64,000 bases of DNA from Patescibacteria group bacterium (GCA_040388415.1 JAZKBV010000004.1:24069-88068); one strand, 5' to 3'. Counted from the stretch's first letter, positions 2,533 through 60,948 are shown. A program made the numbers and translations. The notes: generated from the sequence alone by a model not told the origin.

Positions 2533-3249
2533 TTACCACTTCTTAACCACCAAAGCGTTTTCAGCCGCCTTCTGCTCCGCCTCCTGCTTTGACTTCCCTT
2601 CCCCTGTCGCAACCTGCACATCACCGAGAAATACGGCAAGCGTGAACTTCTTGTCATGATCAGGACCTGTTTCTTTGAGCGTCTTATATGATGGCGTGAC
2701 TCCCGCTTTCTCCTGCGCTTTTTCTTGAAACATGCTCTTTGCATCGATCCATGTCTTGTTCTTCACAATCTCATCGATGTCGATAATATTTAAAATATGT
2801 TCAGAAATAAAATTCGCAGATGTATCATAGCCACTATCCATATAAATAGCACCGATAACTGCTTCAACTGCATTGGCGAGGATGATAGCGCGCGCACGAC
2901 CAGTATCCTTTGCCTCACCTTTTGAAAGGAGCATATAGTCGTTGAGACCAACCTTGTCACCAACTTTTGCCAAACTAACCGTATTCACAATGGCTGAACG
3001 AAAGGCGGTGAGCTCTCCCTCAGCCTTCTTTGGAAATTTACGGAAAAGAAAACTGGTCACTACAAGCTCGAGCACGGCATCACCGAGAAATTCGAGGCGC
3101 TCATTGTGCTCCAAACCAGATTCGCGATTCTCATTGATATATGAGCGATGCGTACATGCGGTGCGCAAAAGAGCCATGTCATTGAACGTGACATTGATAT
3201 GCTCTGCCAAATTTTCGAAGTTTATTTTCATAAAAATACGCCTGCCCAA
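2533..3249 (-). CDS. rnc: Ribonuclease III
   Basis: ERLEFLGDAVLELVV signature and a C-terminal dsRBD (GEGKSKQEAEQKAAENAL). The start may be the internal MKINFEN at 3231. Confidence 0.9.
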   Translation of the reverse strand: MGRRIFMKINFENLAEHINVTFNDMALLRTACTHRSYINENRESGLEHNERLEFLGDAVLELVVTSFLFRKFPKKAEGELTAFRSAIVNTVSLAKVGDKVGLNDYMLLSKGEAKDTGRARAIILANAVEAVIGAIYMDSGYDTSANFISEHILNIIDIDEIVKNKTWIDAKSMFQEKAQEKAGVTPSYKTLKETGPDHDKKFTLAVFLGDVQVATGEGKSKQEAEQKAAENALVVKKW

Positions 3250-3250
3250 C

Positions 3251-4150
3251 TTATTTCTCCTCGCTCACAATCGTCACCGCTTTTGCTACTATAGGTAAAA
3301 TATCGTTATAGAAGTTAAGTTCAAGGATAGCGTCGAGCTTGAACCATTTTGCATCAGCGAGTCCCGGTTTCTTAGCGAGAGTGAGCGTCTTGAAATCAGA
3401 CTCGGCGAGATAGTAGTGCACTTGCTTGCGGATCTTGCCGATCTCGGGATCATTGGCGATATATTCATTTTCACCGAGGTCAGCGATGATCTTTACTTCA
3501 AGACCGATCTCTTCCATCACTTTGTTGATAGTACCCTGCTTCGGATCAACTTCCGGTGGAATCTTGCCCTTTGAGAGGGTCCAGTGGCCGAAGACATCAT
3601 AGACGAAGGCCATATAGACATCTGCGCCGTCACGAGCATATACCACTGCACCACCTAAGTGTTGGATTGGCATTTGCTCATAAGGGACTTCAACCTTCTT
3701 TTTCTTTATCGGCTGGGCATCCTTTCCTGGCTCACCGAGCTCTTTGTAAACTGCACCGAGAACGCCGTTGACGAAACGACCGCTTGTCTCACCGCCAAAG
3801 GTCTTTGCAAGCTCGATGGCTTCATTGATAGCTACTTTCGCAGGCACTTCAACGCGATCAGCAAAGAGAAGCTCATAAAGACCGAGACGGAGCACGTTAC
3901 GGTCTATCGGTGAGATCTTGTCGATAGGCCACTCAGGCGCTGCCTTTGAGATGATGTCATCGAGCTCACTATGTTTAGCGAGGATACCCTTCATAAGCTC
4001 ATCCATGAATGAAACATCGGCTACCCCGGGAGCGAACTCTTTTGCATCGCGCTCTATGATAACAGATGAGGTTGCATCTTTTTTGCCACAAAAATCCCAC
4101 TCAAAAAGTGCCTGGAGGACAACTGAGCGAGATAAATGTCTATTTGCCAT
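3251..4150 (-). CDS. nusB: NusB-family antitermination domain fused to a C-terminal Nudix-like domain (degenerate Nudix box)
   Basis: The N-terminus has RSVVLQALFEWDF...DRNVLRLGLYEL...VPAKVAINEAIELAKTFGGETSGRFVNGVLG, which is typical NusB. The C-terminal 150 aa reads GAVVYARDG...GHWTLSKGKIPPEVDPKQGTINKVMEEIGLEV, matching Gx5Ex7REUxEExGU only at the EExGU positions. Confidence 0.75.
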   Translation of the reverse strand: MANRHLSRSVVLQALFEWDFCGKKDATSSVIIERDAKEFAPGVADVSFMDELMKGILAKHSELDDIISKAAPEWPIDKISPIDRNVLRLGLYELLFADRVEVPAKVAINEAIELAKTFGGETSGRFVNGVLGAVYKELGEPGKDAQPIKKKKVEVPYEQMPIQHLGGAVVYARDGADVYMAFVYDVFGHWTLSKGKIPPEVDPKQGTINKVMEEIGLEVKIIADLGENEYIANDPEIGKIRKQVHYYLAESDFKTLTLAKKPGLADAKWFKLDAILELNFYNDILPIVAKAVTIVSEEK

Positions 4151-4264
4151 GAGTTTATTTGAAGAACATTGTTACGATAACCTGATTATAAAATTCCAAA
4201 TTCCAAATATCAATCACCAAACGAGCACATACCCTTTGGAACTTGTATCTTGGAGCTTGGAACT

Positions 4265-4483
4265 TTACTTAGCTGCCTTTGCAACCTTTGCCGCCTTCTT
4301 GGTAGCAGCGATAGTAAGATCAAGGACCTTACGGCCATTGTACCATCCACAGTTCATACAGACTGCATGACTCTTGTGAGCGGCCTTACAATTTTGGCAA
4401 ACAGAAGTACGTGCAGCATCGAGAGCATGATGTGAACGTCTATTGTCGCGATGAGCTCGCGTTGCGCGCATTCGGTTTACCAT
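4265..4483 (-). CDS. rpmF: 50S ribosomal protein L32
   Basis: RRSHHAL...C.NC...H..C.NCG.YNGRKV zinc-ribbon pattern. Confidence 0.85.
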   Translation of the reverse strand: MVNRMRATRAHRDNRRSHHALDAARTSVCQNCKAAHKSHAVCMNCGWYNGRKVLDLTIAATKKAAKVAKAAK

Positions 4484-4650
4484 GTGGAACAGTATTACAT
4501 ACCATCAAAAAAAACTCAAGTGATTTGTCTAATTAATGAAAACCTGTTATGTTATTACCTGAGTAAGTTATGTGAAATCTGGTCAAAAACTTTTCTGCCG
4601 CATACGCAGCATAAAAGTCTTTTGATCCGAATTTCGCAAAACCGAAATTC

Positions 4651-4723
4651 GCGCCCATAGCTCAGCTGGTAGAGCAGATCCCTCTTAAGGATAAGGTCGT
4701 AGGTTCGATCCCTACTGGGCGCA
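4651..4723 (+). tRNA. tRNA-Lys (anticodon CTT)
   Basis: Cloverleaf folded by hand. The acceptor GCGCCCA pairs with TGGGCGC. The anticodon loop is CTCTTAA and the T-loop is GGTTCGATCC. Confidence 0.85.
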
Positions 4724-4870
4724 CAAACCGAGGGCACGCAGGTTTGTGCGAGCCGCAGGCCTGACGAGGCCGAGGCGGGGTCGCGAGATTTTCTAGCAAG
4801 AAAATACTCGTGACCACAAACATCGTGATAAGATGTGAAAATCAAAGTATAATAACAATACAAATAATTT

Positions 4871-6908: not shown

Positions 6909-7268
6909 TTACGGAATCTGAGGAGGATAGTTCAACTGTGGGAAGTTCTGCGTAGGAGCGTTCGTGTTTGTTCTGAACGTATTTGAGAGAATATTAACGA
7001 GACCCCAGATCGAAAGGATAACAAAGAGACCGACGATGCCCCAGAGCACAGCCATACCAATCGACTTGCGCTTTTCTGGATCCTCAGCGGCCATGATATA
7101 ACGAACAACATTGAAGATGATATAGAGAACCGCAAAAGCGATAAGAATCTCAATAGCGACGTTACCGAGGTTCGTCAGTTTGTTGGTAAGAGAGTTGACG
7201 TCCGTAATAGCCTGAGCGCTCACGATAGCTGGAGCAAAAACGGCGACAAGTGCGATGATTTTTTTCAT
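6909..7268 (-). CDS. Pilin-like secreted/membrane protein (TrbC/VirB2-like), paralog 2
   Basis: Signal peptide MKKIIALVAVFAPAIVSAQA. Two TM helices with loop AAEDPEKRKS. C-terminal motif LSIWGLVNILSNTF. Confidence 0.5.
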   Translation of the reverse strand: MKKIIALVAVFAPAIVSAQAITDVNSLTNKLTNLGNVAIEILIAFAVLYIIFNVVRYIMAAEDPEKRKSIGMAVLWGIVGLFVILSIWGLVNILSNTFRTNTNAPTQNFPQLNYPPQIP

Positions 7269-7377
7269 TTTCTTATAAACTAAATTGGATAATAAAATCT
7301 AATACGATACCTCTAGTATACCCCACATTATTCGCGAGGAGCAACATAACGTGTGGATTAGTCGGTGATGTATTTCA

Positions 7378-7818
7378 CTAGCGTGGGAAGATGTTCGAGA
7401 TCTCTGTCCATGACCCAGGCCCGTAACCTGTATTGCCGAGACCAAATGTATTTTGAAGGATATTGACCAAACCCCACATCGAAAGGATGACGAAGAAGCC
7501 GATGACGCTGTACATGACATATGAACCAGCCTCTTTCTTATCGGCATCAGGCTTAATGAAATAGTTGAATATGTAGTAGACGAATACGACTACCGAAAGA
7601 CCGATCAATAAAAAGAGGATCTGGTTCAAATAACCGATAACACGGTTGATAAGTGTACAAAGCGTCATGGCATTTGAAGTACACTGACTACCCGATGAGG
7701 CGTAATTTCCATATGAGGCGTTACCACCAATGTTGAAAGTAACCGGCGATGTTGCATATGTAGCTATTGGGCTCACGAGCAGAACAAAAGCAAAAAGAGA
7801 AATAAGTGTTTTTTTCAT
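7378..7818 (-). CDS. Pilin-like secreted/membrane protein, paralog 3
   Basis: Start taken at MKKTLISLF (7818), which abuts the stop of paralog 4. Signal peptide present. Two TM helices with loop KPDADKKEAGS. C-terminal motif LSMWGLVNILQNTFG. Confidence 0.5.
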   Translation of the reverse strand: MKKTLISLFAFVLLVSPIATYATSPVTFNIGGNASYGNYASSGSQCTSNAMTLCTLINRVIGYLNQILFLLIGLSVVVFVYYIFNYFIKPDADKKEAGSYVMYSVIGFFVILSMWGLVNILQNTFGLGNTGYGPGSWTEISNIFPR

Positions 7819-7828
7819 AAAATAATAA

Positions 7829-8539
7829 TTACTGGTTATTAATAGCATTCTGCGCATTTTGAATGATCGCTGGATTGACTGTGCCAGTCGCCTGGAGCGT
7901 ATTGATGACGACGCTGATCAATATGCGCGCACCAAGGATGACACCGATGCCAACAACAACCCAGAGGAGCTGGTTGCTGCGGGTCTTAATCGCTTCCGGA
8001 TTTCCCTGCGCCAATACGAACTGGAGACCGACCCACATGAGCATGAGCACACCAAAAATCACTGCGATGTAGCTGACGATCTTCATAAAGGTCAAAATAA
8101 GATCGCTCACCGAATTGACTCCCTTAAGCGGATTGGAGAGTGTCGTCACTGGTGCAGGCGCAGGAGCTTGATCAGAAGCACTCGGTGTTTTTGCTGTAGA
8201 CGTGCGAGCTGCTGGCTGACCGGCAGTCGTTGGAGAACTAACTGTCGTTGGAGATGTAGCGTTATCAACTGCATTTACATTTGATCCTGAATACGGCACT
8301 GGAATAGTCGAGGGAGATGAATCATATGTTGTATCATACGAATTATAATCATAGCTCGAATCAGTGGATGGGTCTGTTGCTGATGGGTCTGTCGAATCTG
8401 CACCGGCACAGCTTTCTGGCGTACCTCCTTCGTTCAAACAATAATCATAATCGCTATTTTGTGCATAGCTGACGAATGGGCTCGCGATAATAACCGCTAA
8501 AGTAAGATATGTGACGTAGATTTTTAGAGTTGTTTTCAT
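7829..8539 (-). CDS. Pilin-like secreted/membrane protein with a long S/T/P/D-rich insert, paralog 4
   Basis: Signal peptide MKTTLKIYVTYLTLAVIIASPFVSYAQ. An approximately 110-aa low-complexity S/T/P/D-rich region. The C-terminal two-TM core ends in ARILISVVINTLQATG. Confidence 0.5.
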   Translation of the reverse strand: MKTTLKIYVTYLTLAVIIASPFVSYAQNSDYDYCLNEGGTPESCAGADSTDPSATDPSTDSSYDYNSYDTTYDSSPSTIPVPYSGSNVNAVDNATSPTTVSSPTTAGQPAARTSTAKTPSASDQAPAPAPVTTLSNPLKGVNSVSDLILTFMKIVSYIAVIFGVLMLMWVGLQFVLAQGNPEAIKTRSNQLLWVVVGIGVILGARILISVVINTLQATGTVNPAIIQNAQNAINNQ

Positions 8540-8573
8540 GAAAAAAAGATCAAATTAATAATTGAGTCAGTAA

Positions 8574-9095
8574 TTATGGACTACCGAGCAACTTGGTAAA
8601 CGCACCATTTCCCGTCAGCCAATTGAGGATCTGATAAACGATGAACCATGCTGACAGCATGATGATCAAACCAATGAATATCTTTGGAAAAATATCCTTG
8701 GCATGACTACGGTCACTATCCTTACCTGTCATAAGTAAATATCCTGCATAGGTAAAGAGAACAATGGCGGCGAGGACACCGAGCACCATGGCAATGTTGA
8801 TGAGATGCTGGACCTGTATCATCATGCCATTAAAATTGCAGGGCACATATGGCTGCGCATGTCCGAATTTTTTCATAAATGCGGTCTCACCTGAAGGCGA
8901 TAATATCTCTCTCGTCTTCGTATCGAGATTAGCTGGCAGCTCTGGGCCATCGCACGCAACGATCCTGAATGACGACTGAGTAGGATCCTCACTTGCGCTA
9001 GGAGACGTTAATGTTTGAGTATTCTGTGCAAAGACTGAAGACGTAGCAAGGAGGCTAACGCTGAGAAGTATGAGAGAAAGGGTAATTTTTTTCAT
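8574..9095 (-). CDS. Pilin-like secreted/membrane protein, paralog 5
   Basis: Signal peptide MKKITLSLILLSVSLLATSSVFAQ. Two TM helices with loop MTGKDSDRSHAKD. C-terminal motif LSAWFIVYQILNWLTGNG. Confidence 0.5.
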   Translation of the reverse strand: MKKITLSLILLSVSLLATSSVFAQNTQTLTSPSASEDPTQSSFRIVACDGPELPANLDTKTREILSPSGETAFMKKFGHAQPYVPCNFNGMMIQVQHLINIAMVLGVLAAIVLFTYAGYLLMTGKDSDRSHAKDIFPKIFIGLIIMLSAWFIVYQILNWLTGNGAFTKLLGSP

Positions 9096-26842: not shown

Positions 26843-27069
26843 CACGAACAAAGTGAGTGGAGACCGTAAGCTCGTGCCTGCGCACGAGCGTCGGGGAATC
26901 GAAAAGGCTCTCCCATATTTTCGAGGAGCTTTGCTCTGAGAAAATGGGAAGCCTGCACTGCGCCTGTAAGGCGAGATTCCTAGCAAGCCGAGACCTGTGA
27001 CTGATTCTACAAATAAAAACCACGCGCAGTCAGAAGACATACGCGCGGGTGATTGAGTGGGTGAGTTAT

Positions 27070-28777: not shown

Positions 28778-30775
28778 CTACGCTACTAGAACATAATCTA
28801 ATGTCTTCTTATCAAGATCAGCTGCGATAGCTTTGAACTTGACCTTATCACCAAGAGTAAATACCTTCCCTGTCTTTTCACCAATGATCGAATATGACTT
28901 TTCATTAAATACATAGAAGTCAGTGCCGAGACTGCGCATGCCGATCATACCTTCTGACTTGCTCTCATTTTCTTCAACATACATACCCCACTTGGTCACA
29001 CCAGTGATCGTACCTTCAAAGACGATACCAAGGCGGGTGCTCATATACTCAACCTGCTTGAGCTTCTTTGACTCGCGCTCGGCTTCAGAAGCACTGATCT
29101 CACGTCGTGTTGAGCTATCAGCGATATGTTGGAATGCGATGATATCCTTGTCTCCAAACGGCTCATTATGCAGATGCTTTGCCAAGACACGATGAACAAG
29201 CAGATCAGGGTAACGACGAATCGGCGAGGTGAAGTGTGTATAGAATTCAAAAGCCAACCCGAAGTGACCAACATTTTTTGTCGAATAGACAGCCTTCTGC
29301 ATTGAACGAAGGATAGCGGTGCGGATAAGATTTTCCTGAGGCTTGCCGTCGATCTGCTCCAGAAGATCATTCAAACCGTGGGCAGTGACAACACCATCTT
29401 TGTCAGCACGAAGGTCGAAACCGAGCGCTTTGACGAAAAGAGCGAGATTCTTGATCTTATCTTTGTCCGGCGCATCGTGGATACGATATATGGCACCCGT
29501 ATCACGCTTTCCCTTTGTCTTGATCTGATCAAAGACGAACTTAGCTACTTCGCGATTGGCAAGCAGCATAAACTCTTCGACGAGCTTGTGGGTATCAATA
29601 CGCTCATATGCATATACGCCGATCGGTTTGCCGTCTTTATCGAGTCTGAACTTGATCTCTTGTGTCTCAAACTCTATAGCTCCACGAGAAAACTTCTCTT
29701 TTTGCAGGATCTTTGCGATGTTATTTAAGGTAATGAGCTGCTCGCGATATGGCATGCCTGCATCGACTGAAGATGCGACTTGTATGCCCTTTGAATATTT
29801 TTCGACATTTGCGGGTACACCATCGATGACTGCCTGAGCAGTCTCATACGTAAAACGATGTGTTGAATTCATTACTGTTCTGCCGAACCAACGCTCATGA
29901 ATATGGCCATTATCATCTATGACAAATATCGCTGAGAAACTGAGCTTGTCTTCATGCGGATTGAGACTACAGACGTCATTTGAAAGCACCTCGGGAAGCA
30001 TAGGAATGGTGCGATCGACGAGATAGACGGAACAACCACGCTTTACGGCTTCTGCATCGAGAGCTCCGCCTTCACGGACATAATGTGACACATCGGCAAT
30101 ATGCACGCCAACTTCATATTTTCCGTCACTCAATTTCTTGAATGAGATAGCATCATCAAAGTCTTTGGCATCAAACGGGTCAATAGTGAATGTTTCCGTG
30201 CCGCGCATATCACGACGCTTAGCGATTTCTTCAGCGCTGATGATACGTTCATTTTTTTCTATCTCTTCAGCTTCTTTTTCGACCGCTTTTGGAAAACCGA
30301 CTTCAAAGCCTTTTTCAAGAACAATGGATTCCATTTCTACATTGTTCACGCCTTTCTTTCCGAGAGTTTTGACGAGAGTTGCTTTTGGCTTTTCTTTTTG
30401 ATCAGTCCACGAGAGAAACTTGATATAGACTTTATCGTCTTTTTCTAAACTTTTGAGACCGTCACCTGTCAAGACAAAAGAAGTATAGGCTTTCTTATCA
30501 TCTAGCATAACGATGTATTCACCATTGACGATAACGACGATTCCCACAAAATACTCTTTGGCACGCTCGACGACCTTGAGGATCTGGCCAACAGGCGTTT
30601 TGACGCCTCGAATCATTTTGGAAGCGACTTTAACCTCGACCAAATCACCGTTCATGGCGGTGTTGAGGGTATTTTCTTCTATATATATCGAATCCTTAAG
30701 TGGATCTGGGTCGTCTATATAACCAGCGCCTTTGCGGGTAGTGGCTATGCGACCAGTGATGATAGAGTCTTTCAT
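28778..30775 (-). CDS. rnr: Ribonuclease R / exoribonuclease II family
   Basis: RNB catalytic region HFGLAFEFYTHFTSPIRRYPDLLVHR. N-terminal cold-shock domains. C-terminal S1 domain. Confidence 0.9.
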   Translation of the reverse strand: MKDSIITGRIATTRKGAGYIDDPDPLKDSIYIEENTLNTAMNGDLVEVKVASKMIRGVKTPVGQILKVVERAKEYFVGIVVIVNGEYIVMLDDKKAYTSFVLTGDGLKSLEKDDKVYIKFLSWTDQKEKPKATLVKTLGKKGVNNVEMESIVLEKGFEVGFPKAVEKEAEEIEKNERIISAEEIAKRRDMRGTETFTIDPFDAKDFDDAISFKKLSDGKYEVGVHIADVSHYVREGGALDAEAVKRGCSVYLVDRTIPMLPEVLSNDVCSLNPHEDKLSFSAIFVIDDNGHIHERWFGRTVMNSTHRFTYETAQAVIDGVPANVEKYSKGIQVASSVDAGMPYREQLITLNNIAKILQKEKFSRGAIEFETQEIKFRLDKDGKPIGVYAYERIDTHKLVEEFMLLANREVAKFVFDQIKTKGKRDTGAIYRIHDAPDKDKIKNLALFVKALGFDLRADKDGVVTAHGLNDLLEQIDGKPQENLIRTAILRSMQKAVYSTKNVGHFGLAFEFYTHFTSPIRRYPDLLVHRVLAKHLHNEPFGDKDIIAFQHIADSSTRREISASEAERESKKLKQVEYMSTRLGIVFEGTITGVTKWGMYVEENESKSEGMIGMRSLGTDFYVFNEKSYSIIGEKTGKVFTLGDKVKFKAIAADLDKKTLDYVLVA

Positions 30776-30910
30776 TACCGAGAAAGTCTAGCATTTTTCA
30801 CTAATTTCTGCTATTTTAGGTAAGTTCGTTAGTGGCGGTTCTGGTCGAAAACTTTTTTCGGGCTTTGCCCAAAAAAAGTCTTTCGATCCGAATTTTGAAG
30901 TGCAAAATTC

Positions 30911-30983
30911 GCGCGGTTAGCTCAGTTGGTAGAGCGACCCCTTGACGTGGGGTAGGTCACAGGTTCGAATCCTGTATCGCGCA
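30911..30983 (+). tRNA. tRNA-Val (anticodon GAC)
   Basis: GCGCGGTTAGCTCAGTTGGTAGAGCGACCCCTTGACGTGGGGTAGGTCACAGGTTCGAATCCTGTATCGCGCA. Confidence 0.85.
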
Positions 30984-56128: not shown

Positions 56129-56201
56129 TCCTCGGTAGCTCAGCTGGTAGAGCAGCTCGCTGTTAACGAGTTGGTCGTAGGTTCGAATCCTACCCGAGGA
56201 G
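56129..56201 (+). tRNA. tRNA-Asn (anticodon GTT); its 3' end is overlapped by the recombinase gene (integration site)
   Basis: TCCTCGGTAGCTCAGCTGGTAGAGCAGCTCGCTGTTAACGAGTTGGTCGTAGGTTCGAATCCTACCCGAGGAG. Confidence 0.85.
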
Positions 56202-57743
56202 CATTGTAGGACGAGAGGGCACAAAAGTGCTCTCTTTTCTTTTTATGGAGCCATTATTTTCTGGTTCGAAAGTGTTATTAAGTAAAGGCACCCATTTAGC
56301 AAGAAATTCAAAGGCTAAAGTGTATTGTGGGGCTATAACATTAGCTTTCATTGAGATGTTCGAAAATATCTGACTTAAAAGCAATCTCTTTTGCTCAACA
56401 GTCGTCTTTGGACCCAAATATATATCTTTTGCCTTCATAGCTAGCTCATGAATTGAATACCCTGCTTCGTAATATCTCTGACGGTCCTCAGAAAGTTTTT
56501 TTAATGAATCCAACAGGACTTCATTTTCTCTTTTTGTATCTTCAAAGACCTTTGTGTACATCTCTCCAGTAATGGCACCATCCAGTTTATCCATATAAAC
56601 TTTCTCCATTCTGTTGTCATTACGCTTAATGAGCCTAGATATCTCTTCTTTCCTGAGACCATGTTCTTGAATCTCATCTGCATGACTTTCTTTTAATGCT
56701 TTTTCTAACCACGCAATAACCCTAGGATTTTTAGGGGCTATCTTGTCGAAATAAGCAAAAAGCTCTTTTTCAACCTCTTCCTGTCGAATCCATTTAGCCT
56801 TTGGACAGCCTTTATAATAATTACAGTGCCCATACCAATGCCCTTTTTGAGTCTCCCATGTAATCACACCTTTACATACCTCACAGTTAAGCTTCGCTTT
56901 GAATACTGGAGTGTGTTTTCTATATGAAGGAGACTGATTTTTACGGTTTAATTTATCTTGAACAAGATTAAATAATTCTTGTGAAATCAATGGCTCATGC
57001 TTTCCTTGATAAATCTCATTGTTCCACCTTATCTTTCCGTAGTAGAAAGGGTCACTCAAAAAATCATGCATTCTCGTCTTACCTACTCTGGTTCCAAAAT
57101 TATTTCTAAATCCCTCCTTATACAAAACATTACTCAGTTCTTGGACCGAATAGTTGCCAGTTGAATACAGGTCAAACATCCGCTTTATATACTGAGCCTT
57201 TTCAGGATTAATTACATGTATCTTATGACCCTTTTCTCCTTGTGATTTATAACCTAATGGTGCCCTAACAGGTGCCCAGCCTTGAGAAAGCTTCTCTTTC
57301 TGCCCTTTGCGGACCTCTTCAGACAAATTTGATATATACTTCTTAGCCAAAACTATTTCAATGTCCCATCTAAACCTTTCATCAGATTTTGCATTTCTGT
57401 GTATCACTAAATTTTGCTTCACAAAGTGAATCTTGCGATTTACATCAGCATCAATCCAATCGTTCGCCACGACTGCTTCCTTGAGGTTTCTAGTTAGTCG
57501 GTCAACCTTTTCGCACAACAGATTATTAACCCCATTCTTAGTCATGTAATCAATCATGTCTGAAAACACCTTTCTTTGCTTTGCACCACTTGCAGATTCA
57601 GCAACAGAAAAAGTTTTTACTACCTTCATATCCTTTCTTTGCGCATGTTCCTCTAGCAACTTCTCTTGTGCTGGCAAAGAATAGCCAGTTTCCTCCTGTT
57701 CTTTTGAACTCACTCGGGCATATATAACAGCTTTTTCTTTCAT
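56190..57743 (-). CDS. Large serine recombinase (serine integrase)
   Basis: N-terminal resolvase catalytic domain (AVIYARVSSKEQ, catalytic Ser). Recombinase domain. Zinc-ribbon and coiled-coil region (CEVCKGVITWETQKGHWYGHCNYYKGCP). 517 aa. Confidence 0.85.
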   Translation of the reverse strand: MKEKAVIYARVSSKEQEETGYSLPAQEKLLEEHAQRKDMKVVKTFSVAESASGAKQRKVFSDMIDYMTKNGVNNLLCEKVDRLTRNLKEAVVANDWIDADVNRKIHFVKQNLVIHRNAKSDERFRWDIEIVLAKKYISNLSEEVRKGQKEKLSQGWAPVRAPLGYKSQGEKGHKIHVINPEKAQYIKRMFDLYSTGNYSVQELSNVLYKEGFRNNFGTRVGKTRMHDFLSDPFYYGKIRWNNEIYQGKHEPLISQELFNLVQDKLNRKNQSPSYRKHTPVFKAKLNCEVCKGVITWETQKGHWYGHCNYYKGCPKAKWIRQEEVEKELFAYFDKIAPKNPRVIAWLEKALKESHADEIQEHGLRKEEISRLIKRNDNRMEKVYMDKLDGAITGEMYTKVFEDTKRENEVLLDSLKKLSEDRQRYYEAGYSIHELAMKAKDIYLGPKTTVEQKRLLLSQIFSNISMKANVIAPQYTLAFEFLAKWVPLLNNTFEPENNGSIKRKESTFVPSRPTMLLG

Positions 57744-60651: not shown

Positions 60652-60948
60652 TTTGTTACTGGTTTTAGGTAGCATAAAGCCCACCACGTGGGCGACGGCT
60701 TGCGCCATCCATACCAGTTTCCCGATATGACCAGTAACGATAGCCCCACATGATGGGTTTTCTACTCGTTACTGGTTTTTTCACCATGTCAGTATTTCTA
60801 CTGATTTAGGCTACTCGTATAAAATATTGAATTGTGTTCCCATTAAACCATAAAATACTCTCGTTTAAAAGTGACATTGGGGCATTTGTTGATAAGTTTA
60901 ATATCAATCTAGTGTATAATATTGATATCAGTTTTTGATATTTGAACA

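What the first reader, a model, noticed from the sequence alone, without database searches (positions are those of the whole stretch)
4581..4650. Conserved ~70-nt structured module immediately upstream of tRNA-Lys, repeated upstream of tRNA-Val (30843-30910), with compensatory base changes
The two tRNA leaders align as follows. Lys: GGTCaAAAACTTTTcT / hairpin CTGCcgcatacGCAG / cATAAAAGTCTTTtGATCCGAATTTcGcaaaacCGAAATTC, then the tRNA. Val: GGTCgAAAACTTTTtT / hairpin GGGCtttGCCC / AAAAAAAGTCTTTcGATCCGAATTTtGaagtgCAAAATTC, then the tRNA. The second hairpin keeps pairing through a covarying change: CGAATTTCG/CGAAATTCG in Lys against CGAATTTTG/CAAAATTCG in Val. The first hairpin is replaced by an unrelated sequence of the same shape. 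Structure-preserving variation argues for a functional RNA or DNA element (a leader processing signal, a regulator binding site, or a tRNA-associated promoter module) rather than chance similarity. The other four tRNAs in the window lack it.
Basis: seen in the sequence. Interest (0 to 1): 0.6.

Follow-up and report, generated by a model that had tools for sequence, protein, structure and literature searches.

The report
Conserved two-hairpin leader before tRNAs
Some tRNA genes in a group of tiny uncultured bacteria (Paceibacteria) carry a conserved, undescribed ~80-base RNA leader that folds into two hairpins ending exactly where the tRNA begins. It can switch between two shapes, so it may control how these tRNAs are cut out or stabilised.

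Summary
It extends beyond the two copies in the window. The 68-70 nt modules at 4581-4650 (before tRNA-Lys) and 30843-30910 (before tRNA-Val) match at 42 of 46 stem and junction positions. All four differences form two compensatory base pairs.

Its "first hairpin" is only the tip of P1. P1 is followed by one C and then by P2, which ends at tRNA position -1.

I found 12 distinct copies in at least 8 Paceibacteria genomes or metagenome contigs. They sit before six tRNA species (Lys-CTT, Lys-TTT, Val-GAC, Thr-TGT, Leu-GAG, Trp-CCA). Every copy is tRNA-adjacent, on the tRNA strand, and downstream of a promoter-like site.

Across 11 copies, 97.5% of pair cells are paired and 5 pairs show compensatory change. 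No Rfam family matches and I found no paper describing it.

The 7-9 nt upstream of the module can pair with the 5' arm of P2. This alternative helix (P0) gives a second fold of similar energy.

At the orthologous tRNA-Val locus the stems are 85-94% conserved while loops and spacer are near random. Two close relatives lack the module precisely.

The best reading is a transcribed, two-state pre-tRNA leader that RNase P removes. Its function is inferred, not shown.

The parts
4525..4553 (+). Inferred promoter of the tRNA-Lys transcript: TTGTCT (4525-4530), 17-nt spacer, TGT-TATGTT (extended -10, hexamer 4548-4553). Predicted start near 4560.
   Evidence: Read from the sequence. The block is almost unchanged in the orthologous locus L032, while the following 27 nt diverge. 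The consensus scan did not flag it (8 of 12 matches, below its threshold). Inferred.
4571..4579 (+). P0 5' strand (UGUGAAAUC). It can pair with the 5' arm of P2 (AUUUCGCA), extending P1 into a hairpin of about 28 bp.
   Evidence: P0 is part of the minimum-free-energy fold of the leader with its flank. The P0 form is -28.4 kcal/mol and the P2 form is -24.0 kcal/mol.
4581..4627 (+). P1 hairpin of the Lys copy. Lower stem GGUCAAAA/UUUUGAUC, bulged C at 4619, upper stem ACUUUU/AAAAGU, variable tip 4595-4612.
   Evidence: Fold. Pair counts over 11 copies.
4628..4628 (+). Single unpaired C between P1 and P2. It is invariant in all 12 copies.
4629..4650 (+). P2 hairpin of the Lys copy: GAAUUUCG, loop CAAAAC, CGAAAUUC. 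It ends at tRNA position -1.
4651..4723 (+). tRNA-Lys (CTT). No CCA is encoded.
30809..30817 (+). Inferred extended -10 of the tRNA-Val transcript (TGC-TATTTT). Predicted start near 30824.
   Evidence: TGnTAWWTT is kept at the orthologous Val locus of the other genomes (TGnTAGATT in L040), with or without the module. The scan did not flag it. Inferred.
30837..30841 (+). Weak P0 5' strand of the Val copy (GGUUC).
   Evidence: Only a 4-bp helix forms. In this copy the P2 form is slightly favoured (-27.1 against -26.4 kcal/mol).
30843..30888 (+). P1 hairpin of the Val copy. Lower stem GGUCGAAA/UUUCGAUC, bulged C at 30880, upper stem ACUUUU(UU)/(AA)AAAAGU, tip GGGCUUUGCCC.
30889..30910 (+). Junction C, then the P2 hairpin of the Val copy: GAAUUUUG, loop AAGUG, CAAAAUUC. 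It ends at tRNA position -1.
30911..30983 (+). tRNA-Val (GAC). The tsaD gene starts 10 nt downstream (30994).

Best explanation
The module is a transcribed, structured 5' leader of a subset of pre-tRNAs in one clade of Paceibacteria (Patescibacteria/CPR). Transcription is inferred to start about 9-23 nt upstream of it. RNase P is inferred to cut at its 3' boundary, the tRNA 5' end.

The element has three mutually complementary strands around one hairpin: A (GAAAUUCU-like flank), P1, A' (CGAAUUUYG), a loop, and A again (CRAAAUUC). It can therefore take two forms:
- A long 5'-terminal hairpin (P0+P1, about 26-30 bp). This leaves the last ~14 nt single-stranded next to the tRNA and so open to RNase P. 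Such a hairpin could also shield the 5' end or serve as an RNase III substrate.
- P1 plus P2, where P2 abuts and probably stacks on the acceptor stem and hides the cleavage site.

I propose it works as a cis-acting gate on the maturation or stability of these tRNAs.

Shown: the structure, its conservation and covariation, strict tRNA adjacency, strand, and in-place conservation.
Inferred: the transcription start, RNase P cleavage, the switch, and its consequence.
For: Structure:
- Both window copies fold with z about -6.
- Over 11 copies, 97.5% of pair cells are paired, against at most 64% when partners are slid.
- Five pairs carry compensatory changes in 13 cells, and 0 of 500 shuffles reach the covariation score.

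RNA on the tRNA strand:
- The GGUC/GAUC G.U wobble is kept in 10 of 11 copies, and P0 holds 13 G.U pairs.
- The reverse strand scores about 60 bits lower with the model.

Transcribed leader:
- Promoter-like sites lie 16-30 nt upstream in all copies and are conserved between orthologues.
- The scan tool flagged those of L004 and L034.

tRNA linkage:
- All 12 copies precede a tRNA. Eleven have no spacer and one has 2 nt.
- None was found elsewhere.

Two states:
- The P0 and P2 forms differ by -4.4 to +3.7 kcal/mol (median about -1.2) in 12 copies.
- P0 is in the minimum-energy fold of 7 of 8 leaders.
- 62 of 77 P0 cells pair in fixed columns.

Selection in place:
- Among orthologous Val copies the core stems are 85-94% identical.
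- Spacer, P2 loop and the P1 upper part are 45-55% identical.

Enzymes:
- CPR genomes do carry (diverged) RNase P RNA (PMC8172020).
- RNase III is encoded in the window at 2533-3249.
Against: - There are no expression or processing data. The transcription start and RNase P cleavage are inferred.
- The module is dispensable. Two close relatives (L038, L039) and more distant ones (L041, L049) have the same tRNA-Val with only an 8-12 nt gap after the -10 element.
- P0 is weak in the window Val copy (4 bp) and in L037. The energy gap between forms is not tightly tuned.
- A duplex-energy test of P0 gave only modest support per copy: p about 0.03-0.2 in most copies and above 0.7 in two, one of which (L037) was run with wrong coordinates.
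- No trigger for a switch is known.
- That a hairpin abutting position -1 hampers bacterial RNase P rests on general knowledge, not on a test here.
- The near-invariant lower stem of P1 is not explained by alternative pairing. It hints at an unidentified sequence-specific partner.
Confidence: 0.4

Rival explanations
1. A selfish, non-autonomous insertion (MITE- or REP-like palindromic cassette) that lands between promoter and tRNA. It persists or spreads by transposition or gene conversion and has no host function.
For: - Distribution over tRNA species is patchy, and the orthologous Val locus shows precise presence and absence.
- The flank GAAATTCT resembles the 3' end RAAATTC, like a target-site duplication.
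- Similarities are mosaic. The window Val copy is almost identical to the L040 Thr copy, including both loops, whereas the orthologous L037 and L040 Val copies are of another type.
- The P2 of L037 Val resembles the P2 of the window Lys copy.
Against: - All 12 copies sit at the tRNA 5' boundary and nowhere else. Only 2 copies occur in 64 kb.
- The core is under strong purifying selection in place, while neighbouring bases are randomised.
- Flank changes relative to GAAAUUC are mostly A-to-G, which keeps pairing with U, rather than random decay.
- No terminal inverted repeats flank the putative duplication.
- No transposase is next to any copy. Only about a third of the window's genes were scanned.
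Confidence: 0.13
2. The leader is itself the product: a stable small RNA of about 85-90 nt, or a protein-binding scaffold. It borrows a tRNA promoter and uses RNase P cleavage at the tRNA 5' end to form its own 3' end, as MALAT1/mascRNA or plant tRNA-snoRNA transcripts do.
For: - The block shared between paralogous copies runs from about the predicted transcription start to exactly position -1. That matches the RNA RNase P would release.
- The host tRNA differs between genomes, yet each sampled genome that has the element keeps one or more copies.
- The invariant core around the P1/P2 junction, with free loops, suits recognition by a protein.
- A second conserved structured element lies 3' of tRNAs in the same genomes.
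Against: - Loops and single-stranded parts are not conserved, so base-pairing with targets in trans is unlikely.
- Some relatives lack it at Val, and their other loci could not be checked.
- There is no evidence that the released leader is stable.
Confidence: 0.17
3. A put-like cis-acting RNA. The nascent two-hairpin leader binds the transcribing RNA polymerase and suppresses pausing or termination through the highly structured tRNA and into downstream genes such as tsaD.
For: - The architecture matches HK022 put RNA: about 70 nt, two stem-loops with bulges, just downstream of a promoter, and a distance-dependent anti-pausing effect (PMC9378689).
- Spacing to the tRNA is fixed.
- tRNA-Val is followed 10 nt later by tsaD-prsW-hsp20 with no intervening promoter seen.
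Against: - The model finds no significant match anywhere in the HK022 genome (best 8 bits, E 4.4).
- Relatives with the same tRNA-Val/tsaD layout lack the module.
- The L040 Thr copy is followed directly by a terminator-like hairpin.
- A put-like role does not explain the P0 alternative.
Confidence: 0.1
4. A DNA-level element: an operator for a dimeric regulator, a promoter part, or a cruciform.
For: - The sequence has long inverted repeats and palindromic cores (GATC, TCGA).
- It is close to promoters.
Against: - Arm spacing varies from 26 to 45 nt.
- It carries a conserved G.U wobble and a one-base bulge on one strand only.
- No promoter-like site lies inside it.
- Compensatory changes are not expected for two half-sites bound by the same protein.
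Confidence: 0.04
5. Chance similarity, or a recent duplication confined to this genome.
For: None beyond the small number of copies in the window.
Against: - Zero matches are expected by chance.
- Ten further distinct copies exist in other genomes, with covariation.
- The flanks of the two window copies do not align.
Confidence: 0.01

Closest known systems
Phage HK022 put RNA (putL/putR), a cis-acting antiterminator and anti-pausing RNA
   Same: About 70 nt. Two stem-loops with bulges side by side. Promoter-proximal, acting in cis, and sensitive to distance from its site of action (PMC9378689).
   Different: No sequence or structure match by covariance model. The host context is a tRNA gene, not a long operon. 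It has an alternative P0 pairing. Polymerase binding is untested.
Transcription-attenuator leaders (trp, his, pyrBI type) with mutually exclusive 1:2 and 2:3 hairpins
   Same: Three complementary strands give two exclusive folds of similar energy in the 5' leader.
   Different: The 2:3 hairpin (P2) is not followed by a U run. A G+C-rich acceptor stem follows instead, so it is not an intrinsic terminator. There is no leader peptide, and the downstream gene is a tRNA.
RNase III-processed leader stems of rRNA and phage transcripts
   Same: P0+P1 is an imperfect duplex of 26-30 bp near the 5' end of a stable-RNA precursor. RNase III is encoded in the window.
   Different: The stem is made by the leader alone, not by leader-trailer pairing. 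Cleavage is untested. The lower stem is more sequence-conserved than RNase III specificity would require.
tRNA-linked non-coding RNAs matured by tRNA-processing enzymes (MALAT1/mascRNA, plant tRNA-snoRNA, E. coli 3'ETS-leuZ)
   Same: A conserved structured RNA is physically joined to a tRNA, so RNase P cleavage would define one of its ends.
   Different: Here it lies 5' of a genuine, probably single-copy tRNA in a bacterium. Its stability and any trans function are unknown.
REP/BIME, Correia and other bacterial palindromic repeats (MITE-like)
   Same: Short imperfect palindrome, several copies per genome, patchy presence, mosaic similarity, transcribed as part of host RNAs.
   Different: Few copies, and all are at one precise position relative to tRNA genes. 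The core is conserved in place. No inverted repeats flank the putative duplication.

Membership tests
Any Rfam 15 family | Covariance-model score at or above the family's gathering threshold | tested here: not met
   At the gathering threshold only tRNAs and LOOT match in the window. At E up to 10 on 4480-4740, the module gets only chance microRNA, snoRNA and CRISPR-repeat hairpin matches of 16-24 bits, against thresholds of 35-80.
HK022 put RNA | About 70 nt, two adjacent stem-loops, promoter-proximal | tested here: met
   This is a resemblance of architecture only.
HK022 put RNA | Sequence and structure homology to putL/putR | tested here: not met
   Model R1 with filters off on the whole HK022 genome gave a best score of 8.1 bits, E 4.4.
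HK022 put RNA | Binds the RNA polymerase beta' zinc-binding domain and suppresses termination | not testable with these tools
   Needs in vitro transcription.
Intrinsic terminator / terminator-antiterminator attenuator | G+C-rich hairpin followed by a U run | tested here: not met
   No terminator-like site at either module. P2 is A+U-rich and is followed by GCGC... of the tRNA.
Intrinsic terminator / terminator-antiterminator attenuator | Mutually exclusive alternative hairpins | tested here: met
   P0 and P2 share the strand CGAAUUUYG. Their energies are within about 4 kcal/mol.
MITE/REP-type mobile palindromic repeat | Many copies in varied genomic contexts | tested here: not met
   Two copies in 64 kb. 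All 12 copies are directly 5' of tRNAs. No orphan copy was found in about 400 kb of held sequence.
MITE/REP-type mobile palindromic repeat | Target-site duplication and terminal inverted repeats | tested here: inconclusive
   The flank GAAATTCT resembles the 3' end RAAATTC. The same similarity is what P0 pairing requires. The ends inside that repeat are not inverted repeats. Empty sites (L038, L039, L041) show no clean footprint.
Sigma-70 promoter | -35 and -10 hexamers placed to start transcription at or before the tRNA | tested here: not met
   No site lies inside the module. The best internal match, TTGATC-17-AAATTC, would start transcription inside the tRNA.
boxA (NusB/NusE) antitermination leader | Conserved single-stranded boxA consensus (..CUCUUUA..) | tested here: not met
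   GUCUUUYGA resembles boxA only in the copies found by pattern. It is base-paired, and it reads AUAUUUUGA or UUAUUUUGA in the model-found copies.
tRNA, pseudo-tRNA or tRNA-like element | Cloverleaf recognised by ARAGORN or the Rfam tRNA model | tested here: not met
   Neither tool calls the module. The UUCGAUC similarity to a T-loop is not kept across copies.

The most novel reading that the evidence does not exclude
The block shared between paralogous copies is the leader RNA itself, from about the transcription start to the RNase P site. The cassette has also moved between different tRNA genes: the window Val copy is nearly identical to the L040 Thr copy.

The most novel reading is a mobile or copy-pasted RNA-defined cassette. 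It would home to the exact 5' boundary of tRNA genes and use the host's tRNA promoter and RNase P to express and mature a small structured RNA with a role of its own.
Probability: 0.15. Interest if true: 0.85.

Novelty: new variant of a known kind. Interest (0 to 1): 0.6.

Why it matters
Bacterial pre-tRNA leaders are usually short and unconserved, and are treated as disposable.

Here a subset of tRNAs in genome-reduced CPR bacteria carries an elaborate leader. It shows covariation, a built-in alternative fold, and a boundary fixed to the RNase P site. Other tRNAs in these same genomes appear to have leaders of only 2-10 nt.

If the leader gates RNase P access or protects the 5' end, tRNA supply in these organisms is regulated at the level of precursor processing. 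If it is instead a piggy-backing small RNA or a cassette that homes to tRNA 5' ends, that would be a new kind of tRNA-linked element in bacteria.

Either way it is a clean candidate for a new RNA family. It also gives a simple in vitro test system: RNase P or RNase III with leaders locked in one fold.

Tried and rejected
- **Promoter inside the module.** Rejected, as the consensus scan found none there.
- **Known RNA family.** None matches.
- **Phage carriage.** Two viral-contig scans were run. The first found nothing. The second found only two bare P2-like hairpins with no P1 and no tRNA, scoring 15 bits. Neither is a member.
- **Pattern-scan false positives.**
  - Sixteen of 19 genome hits lie in coding sequence or lack the hairpins and a tRNA.
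  - Thirteen of 17 metagenome hits fail in the same way.
  - L035 has two GATCCGAATTT repeats but no tRNA and only 15 bits.
- **Homology to HK022 put.** Rejected.
- **boxA and T-loop resemblances.** The similarity is not kept in copies found by the model, or it breaks the observed covariation.
- **P2 pairing with the 3' trailer.** Seen only for the L040 Thr copy, so it is not general.
- **Duplex-energy test of P0.** It has low power for A+U-rich 7-mers. In most copies 3-22% of random 14-mers paired as well, but about 70-85% did in two copies. The L037 row used wrong coordinates. The constrained folds replace it.
- **Clean target-site duplication at empty sites.** Not found.
- **Failed look-ups.**
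  - The first TsaD look-up failed because the stop codon was included.
  - P0005 and P0018 returned no DNA.
  - The L32 look-up returned only the window's own organism.
- **Ascertainment caveat.** The copies found by exact pattern are forced to share the P1 3' arm and the P2 5' arm. Their invariance there is by construction. Conclusions about conservation rest on the partner arms and on the copies found by the model (L037, L040 Val, L048).

Full report

Yes. ARAGORN and Rfam place tRNA-Lys(CTT) at 4651-4723/4 and tRNA-Val(GAC) at 30911-30983/4. The 70 and 68 bases before them align, while the sequence further upstream does not.

The shared 24-mer AAAAGTCTTTYGATCCGAATTTYG occurs at these two places only, with none expected in shuffles.

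Outside the two variable loops, 42 of 46 stem and junction positions are identical. The four differences are two compensatory pairs. One is in P1 (A-U against G-C, not noticed).

**2. Anatomy**

- **P1** has a lower stem GGUCRAAA/UUUYGAUC and a one-base bulge on the 3' side. Above these are an upper stem ACUUUU/AAAAGU and a variable tip.
- **One unpaired C** follows.
- **P2** (GAAUUUYG, a 5-7 nt loop, CRAAAUUC) has its last base at tRNA position -1.

Energies are -26.8 and -29.9 kcal/mol, with z of -6.1 and -5.5.

The 7-9 nt just 5' of the module (consensus GAAAUUCU) resemble the 3' arm of P2. They can pair with the 5' arm of P2, forming a helix I call P0. P0 extends P1 to 26-30 bp and excludes P2.
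- With 25 nt of flank, P0 is in the minimum-energy fold of 7 of 8 leaders.
- In 12 copies the two forms differ by -4.4 to +3.7 kcal/mol, with a median near -1.2.
- In fixed alignment columns, 62 of 77 P0 cells pair, 13 of them as G.U.
- P0 is weak in the window Val copy and in L037.

**3. A family, always at tRNA 5' ends**

One exact-pattern scan of 185,579 species genomes gave three true copies in Paceibacteria MAGs among 19 hits. These are L004 before tRNA-Leu-GAG, L007 before tRNA-Thr-TGT and L015 before tRNA-Trp.

One metagenome scan gave four true hits among 17. Three are new copies: L030 (Thr), L032 (Lys-CTT) and L034 (Lys-TTT). The fourth, L027, is the same as L015.

A covariance model built from eight copies (R1) then found four more in loci fetched through TsaD homologues. 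These are L037 Val (65 bits), L040 Val (62.5 bits), L040 Thr (82 bits) and L048 Val (72.5 bits). Three are divergent; the L040 Thr copy is close to the window Val copy.

It found no other copy in the window with filters off, nor in any other held locus.

All 12 distinct copies lie on the tRNA strand and directly before a tRNA. Eleven have no spacer and one has two extra bases. No Rfam family matches. Four literature searches found no description.

**4. Covariation, with a caveat**

On 11 copies, 97.5% of pair cells are standard pairs, against at most 64% when partners are slid. Five pairs carry changes on both sides, in 13 cells. No shuffle reaches the covariation score.

Copies found by exact pattern must share the P1 3' arm and the P2 5' arm, so invariance there is by construction.

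The model-found copies are free of that bias. In them the upper P1 stem changes sequence but keeps pairing: ACUUUU/AAAAGU, UUUU/AAAA, AAUUUUC/GAAAAUU. L040 Thr has a U-A pair inserted on both sides. The bulge changes identity (C, U, A) while staying within one position. The core GGUC...GAUC-C-GAAUUU...AAAUUC stays invariant.

**5. RNA, and which strand**

The G.U wobble in GGUC/GAUC is kept in 10 of 11 copies, and P0 is rich in G.U. On the other strand these would be A.C mismatches. The reverse strand scores about 60 bits lower.

Promoter-like sites lie 16-30 nt upstream of every copy and are conserved between orthologues:
- TTGTCT-17-TGTTATGTT for Lys (window and L032).
- TTGCRG-17-TAATCT for Thr (L007, L030, L040).
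- TGnTAWWTT for Val (TGnTAGATT in L040).

These were read. The scan tool flagged TTGATA-17-TATAGT in L004 and TTTGCA-18-TATAGT in L034. It did not flag the weaker window sites.

The module is therefore most likely the body of a 5' leader of about 85-95 nt. This is inferred, not measured.

**6. Evolution at one locus**

The tRNA-Val/tsaD neighbourhood is syntenic across relatives.

| Locus | Module before tRNA-Val? |
|---|---|
| window (and L046, identical) | present |
| L037 | present |
| L040 | present |
| L048 | present |
| L038 | absent |
| L039 | absent |
| L041 | absent |
| L049/L050 | absent |

In the loci that lack it, the -10 element lies 8-12 nt from tRNA +1.

A TsaD tree nests L038 and L039 within the clade that carries the module. 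The simplest history is an ancestral module with two precise losses.

Among the four orthologous Val copies the core stems are 85-94% identical. The spacer, the P2 loop and the P1 upper part are 45-55% identical, which is near random for optimised alignments. This is purifying selection in place, which argues against a decaying selfish insertion.

Similarities are also mosaic. The window Val copy is nearly identical to the L040 Thr copy, including the tip CGGGCUUUGCCC and the P2 loop AAGUG. Meanwhile L037 Val and L040 Val share another type, and the P2 of L037 Val resembles the P2 of the window Lys copy. So copies are exchanged or converted between tRNA loci.

The block shared by paralogues runs from about the predicted start site to exactly position -1. 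That is the RNA RNase P would release.

**7. Mechanism**

- **Shown:** a conserved, covarying two-hairpin element on the tRNA strand that ends at the tRNA 5' end. It has a competing third helix and is conserved in place.
- **Inferred:** it is transcribed from the upstream promoter and cut off by RNase P. CPR genomes do carry diverged RNase P RNAs (PMC8172020).

My preferred model is a two-state leader.
- During transcription A pairs with A' as soon as P1 closes. This gives a long 5'-terminal hairpin and leaves the loop plus the second A strand (about 14 nt) single-stranded beside the tRNA. From general knowledge of bacterial RNase P, this is the favoured kind of substrate.
- If the 5' strand is missing, removed or displaced, P2 forms against the acceptor stem and should hinder cleavage. 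One possible route is RNase III cutting the 26-30 bp duplex; RNase III is encoded at 2533-3249.
- The long hairpin could also protect the 5' end.

The near-invariant lower P1 stem is not explained by this model. It suggests an unidentified sequence-specific partner.

I put 0.4 on this cis-acting gate. The rivals and their weights:

| Rival | Weight |
|---|---|
| Leader-derived small RNA matured by RNase P | 0.17 |
| Selfish or mobile cassette | 0.13 |
| put-like polymerase modifier | 0.10 |
| DNA-level site | 0.04 |
| Chance | 0.01 |

The rest is left unassigned. These readings are not all exclusive.

**8. Comparison with known systems**

- **HK022 put RNA** is the nearest architecture: about 70 nt, two bulged stem-loops, promoter-proximal, distance-sensitive (PMC9378689). 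The model finds nothing in HK022, so this is "may work like", not "is a member".
- **Attenuators** share the 1:2 / 2:3 logic, but P2 is no terminator.
- **REP, MITE and Correia elements** share the palindromic form and patchiness. They do not share the single fixed position or the conservation in place.
- **tRNA-linked RNAs** such as MALAT1/mascRNA share the use of tRNA processing to define an end.

**9. Verdict**

This is a real, undescribed structured RNA motif specific to a clade of Paceibacteria. It is tied to the 5' end of a changing subset of tRNA genes. Its function is unknown, and testable models are given.

Novelty: a new variant of a known kind (structured cis leader or tRNA-linked RNA). 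Interest: 0.6.

Noticed in passing
window 26888-26979 (+); L004 1620-1711 (-): A second tRNA-flanking element of about 90 nt, G+C-rich. It lies about 45 nt after tRNA-Glu here and about 68 nt after tRNA-His in another Paceibacteria genome. The two are 85% identical, with compensatory differences. It folds at -44 kcal/mol (z -3.4). There is no Rfam match at E up to 1.
   Followed up: partly
window 4725-4790 (+): A 68% G+C stretch directly after tRNA-Lys, in a window of 44% G+C. It has no match in any held locus and is absent from the orthologous L032 trailer.
   Followed up: partly
window 56129-57743 and 60694-60812: A large serine recombinase gene (56190-57743, minus strand) ends inside the 3' end of tRNA-Asn (56129-56202), as expected for an integrated element. 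A LOOT RNA (RF03000, 87.5 bits) lies about 3 kb further on, at 60694-60812 on the minus strand.
   Followed up: partly
window 2533-4483 (-): The operon divergent from the tRNA-Lys leader encodes ribosomal protein L32, a NusB-NUDIX fusion and RNase III. RNase R (28778-30775, minus strand) is divergent from the tRNA-Val leader. These neighbours are RNA-processing genes, but no link to the module was shown.
   Followed up: partly
window 6909-9095 (-): Four consecutive genes, each with a T4SS_pilin domain.
   Followed up: no
L049 18175-18260 (-): In a Taylorbacteria contig the intact tRNA-Thr(TGT) is preceded by two tandem partial copies of its own 5' half (GTGAACGCCACCTTAGCTGTCTTGGTAGAATGCAA). 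This is the position where other genomes carry the leader module.
   Followed up: no
L040 17900-17940 (-): A P2-like hairpin (AAATTTTG gttttg CAAAATCT) lies directly after the 3' end of the module-bearing tRNA-Thr, followed by a terminator-like hairpin. The model scores the region 29.6 bits on the opposite strand.
   Followed up: partly
L037 9812-9917 (+): The Val copy of this genome has an 18-nt insertion in the 5' arm of P1. It also has a GC dinucleotide between P2 and the tRNA. It is the only copy that does not end at position -1.
   Followed up: partly
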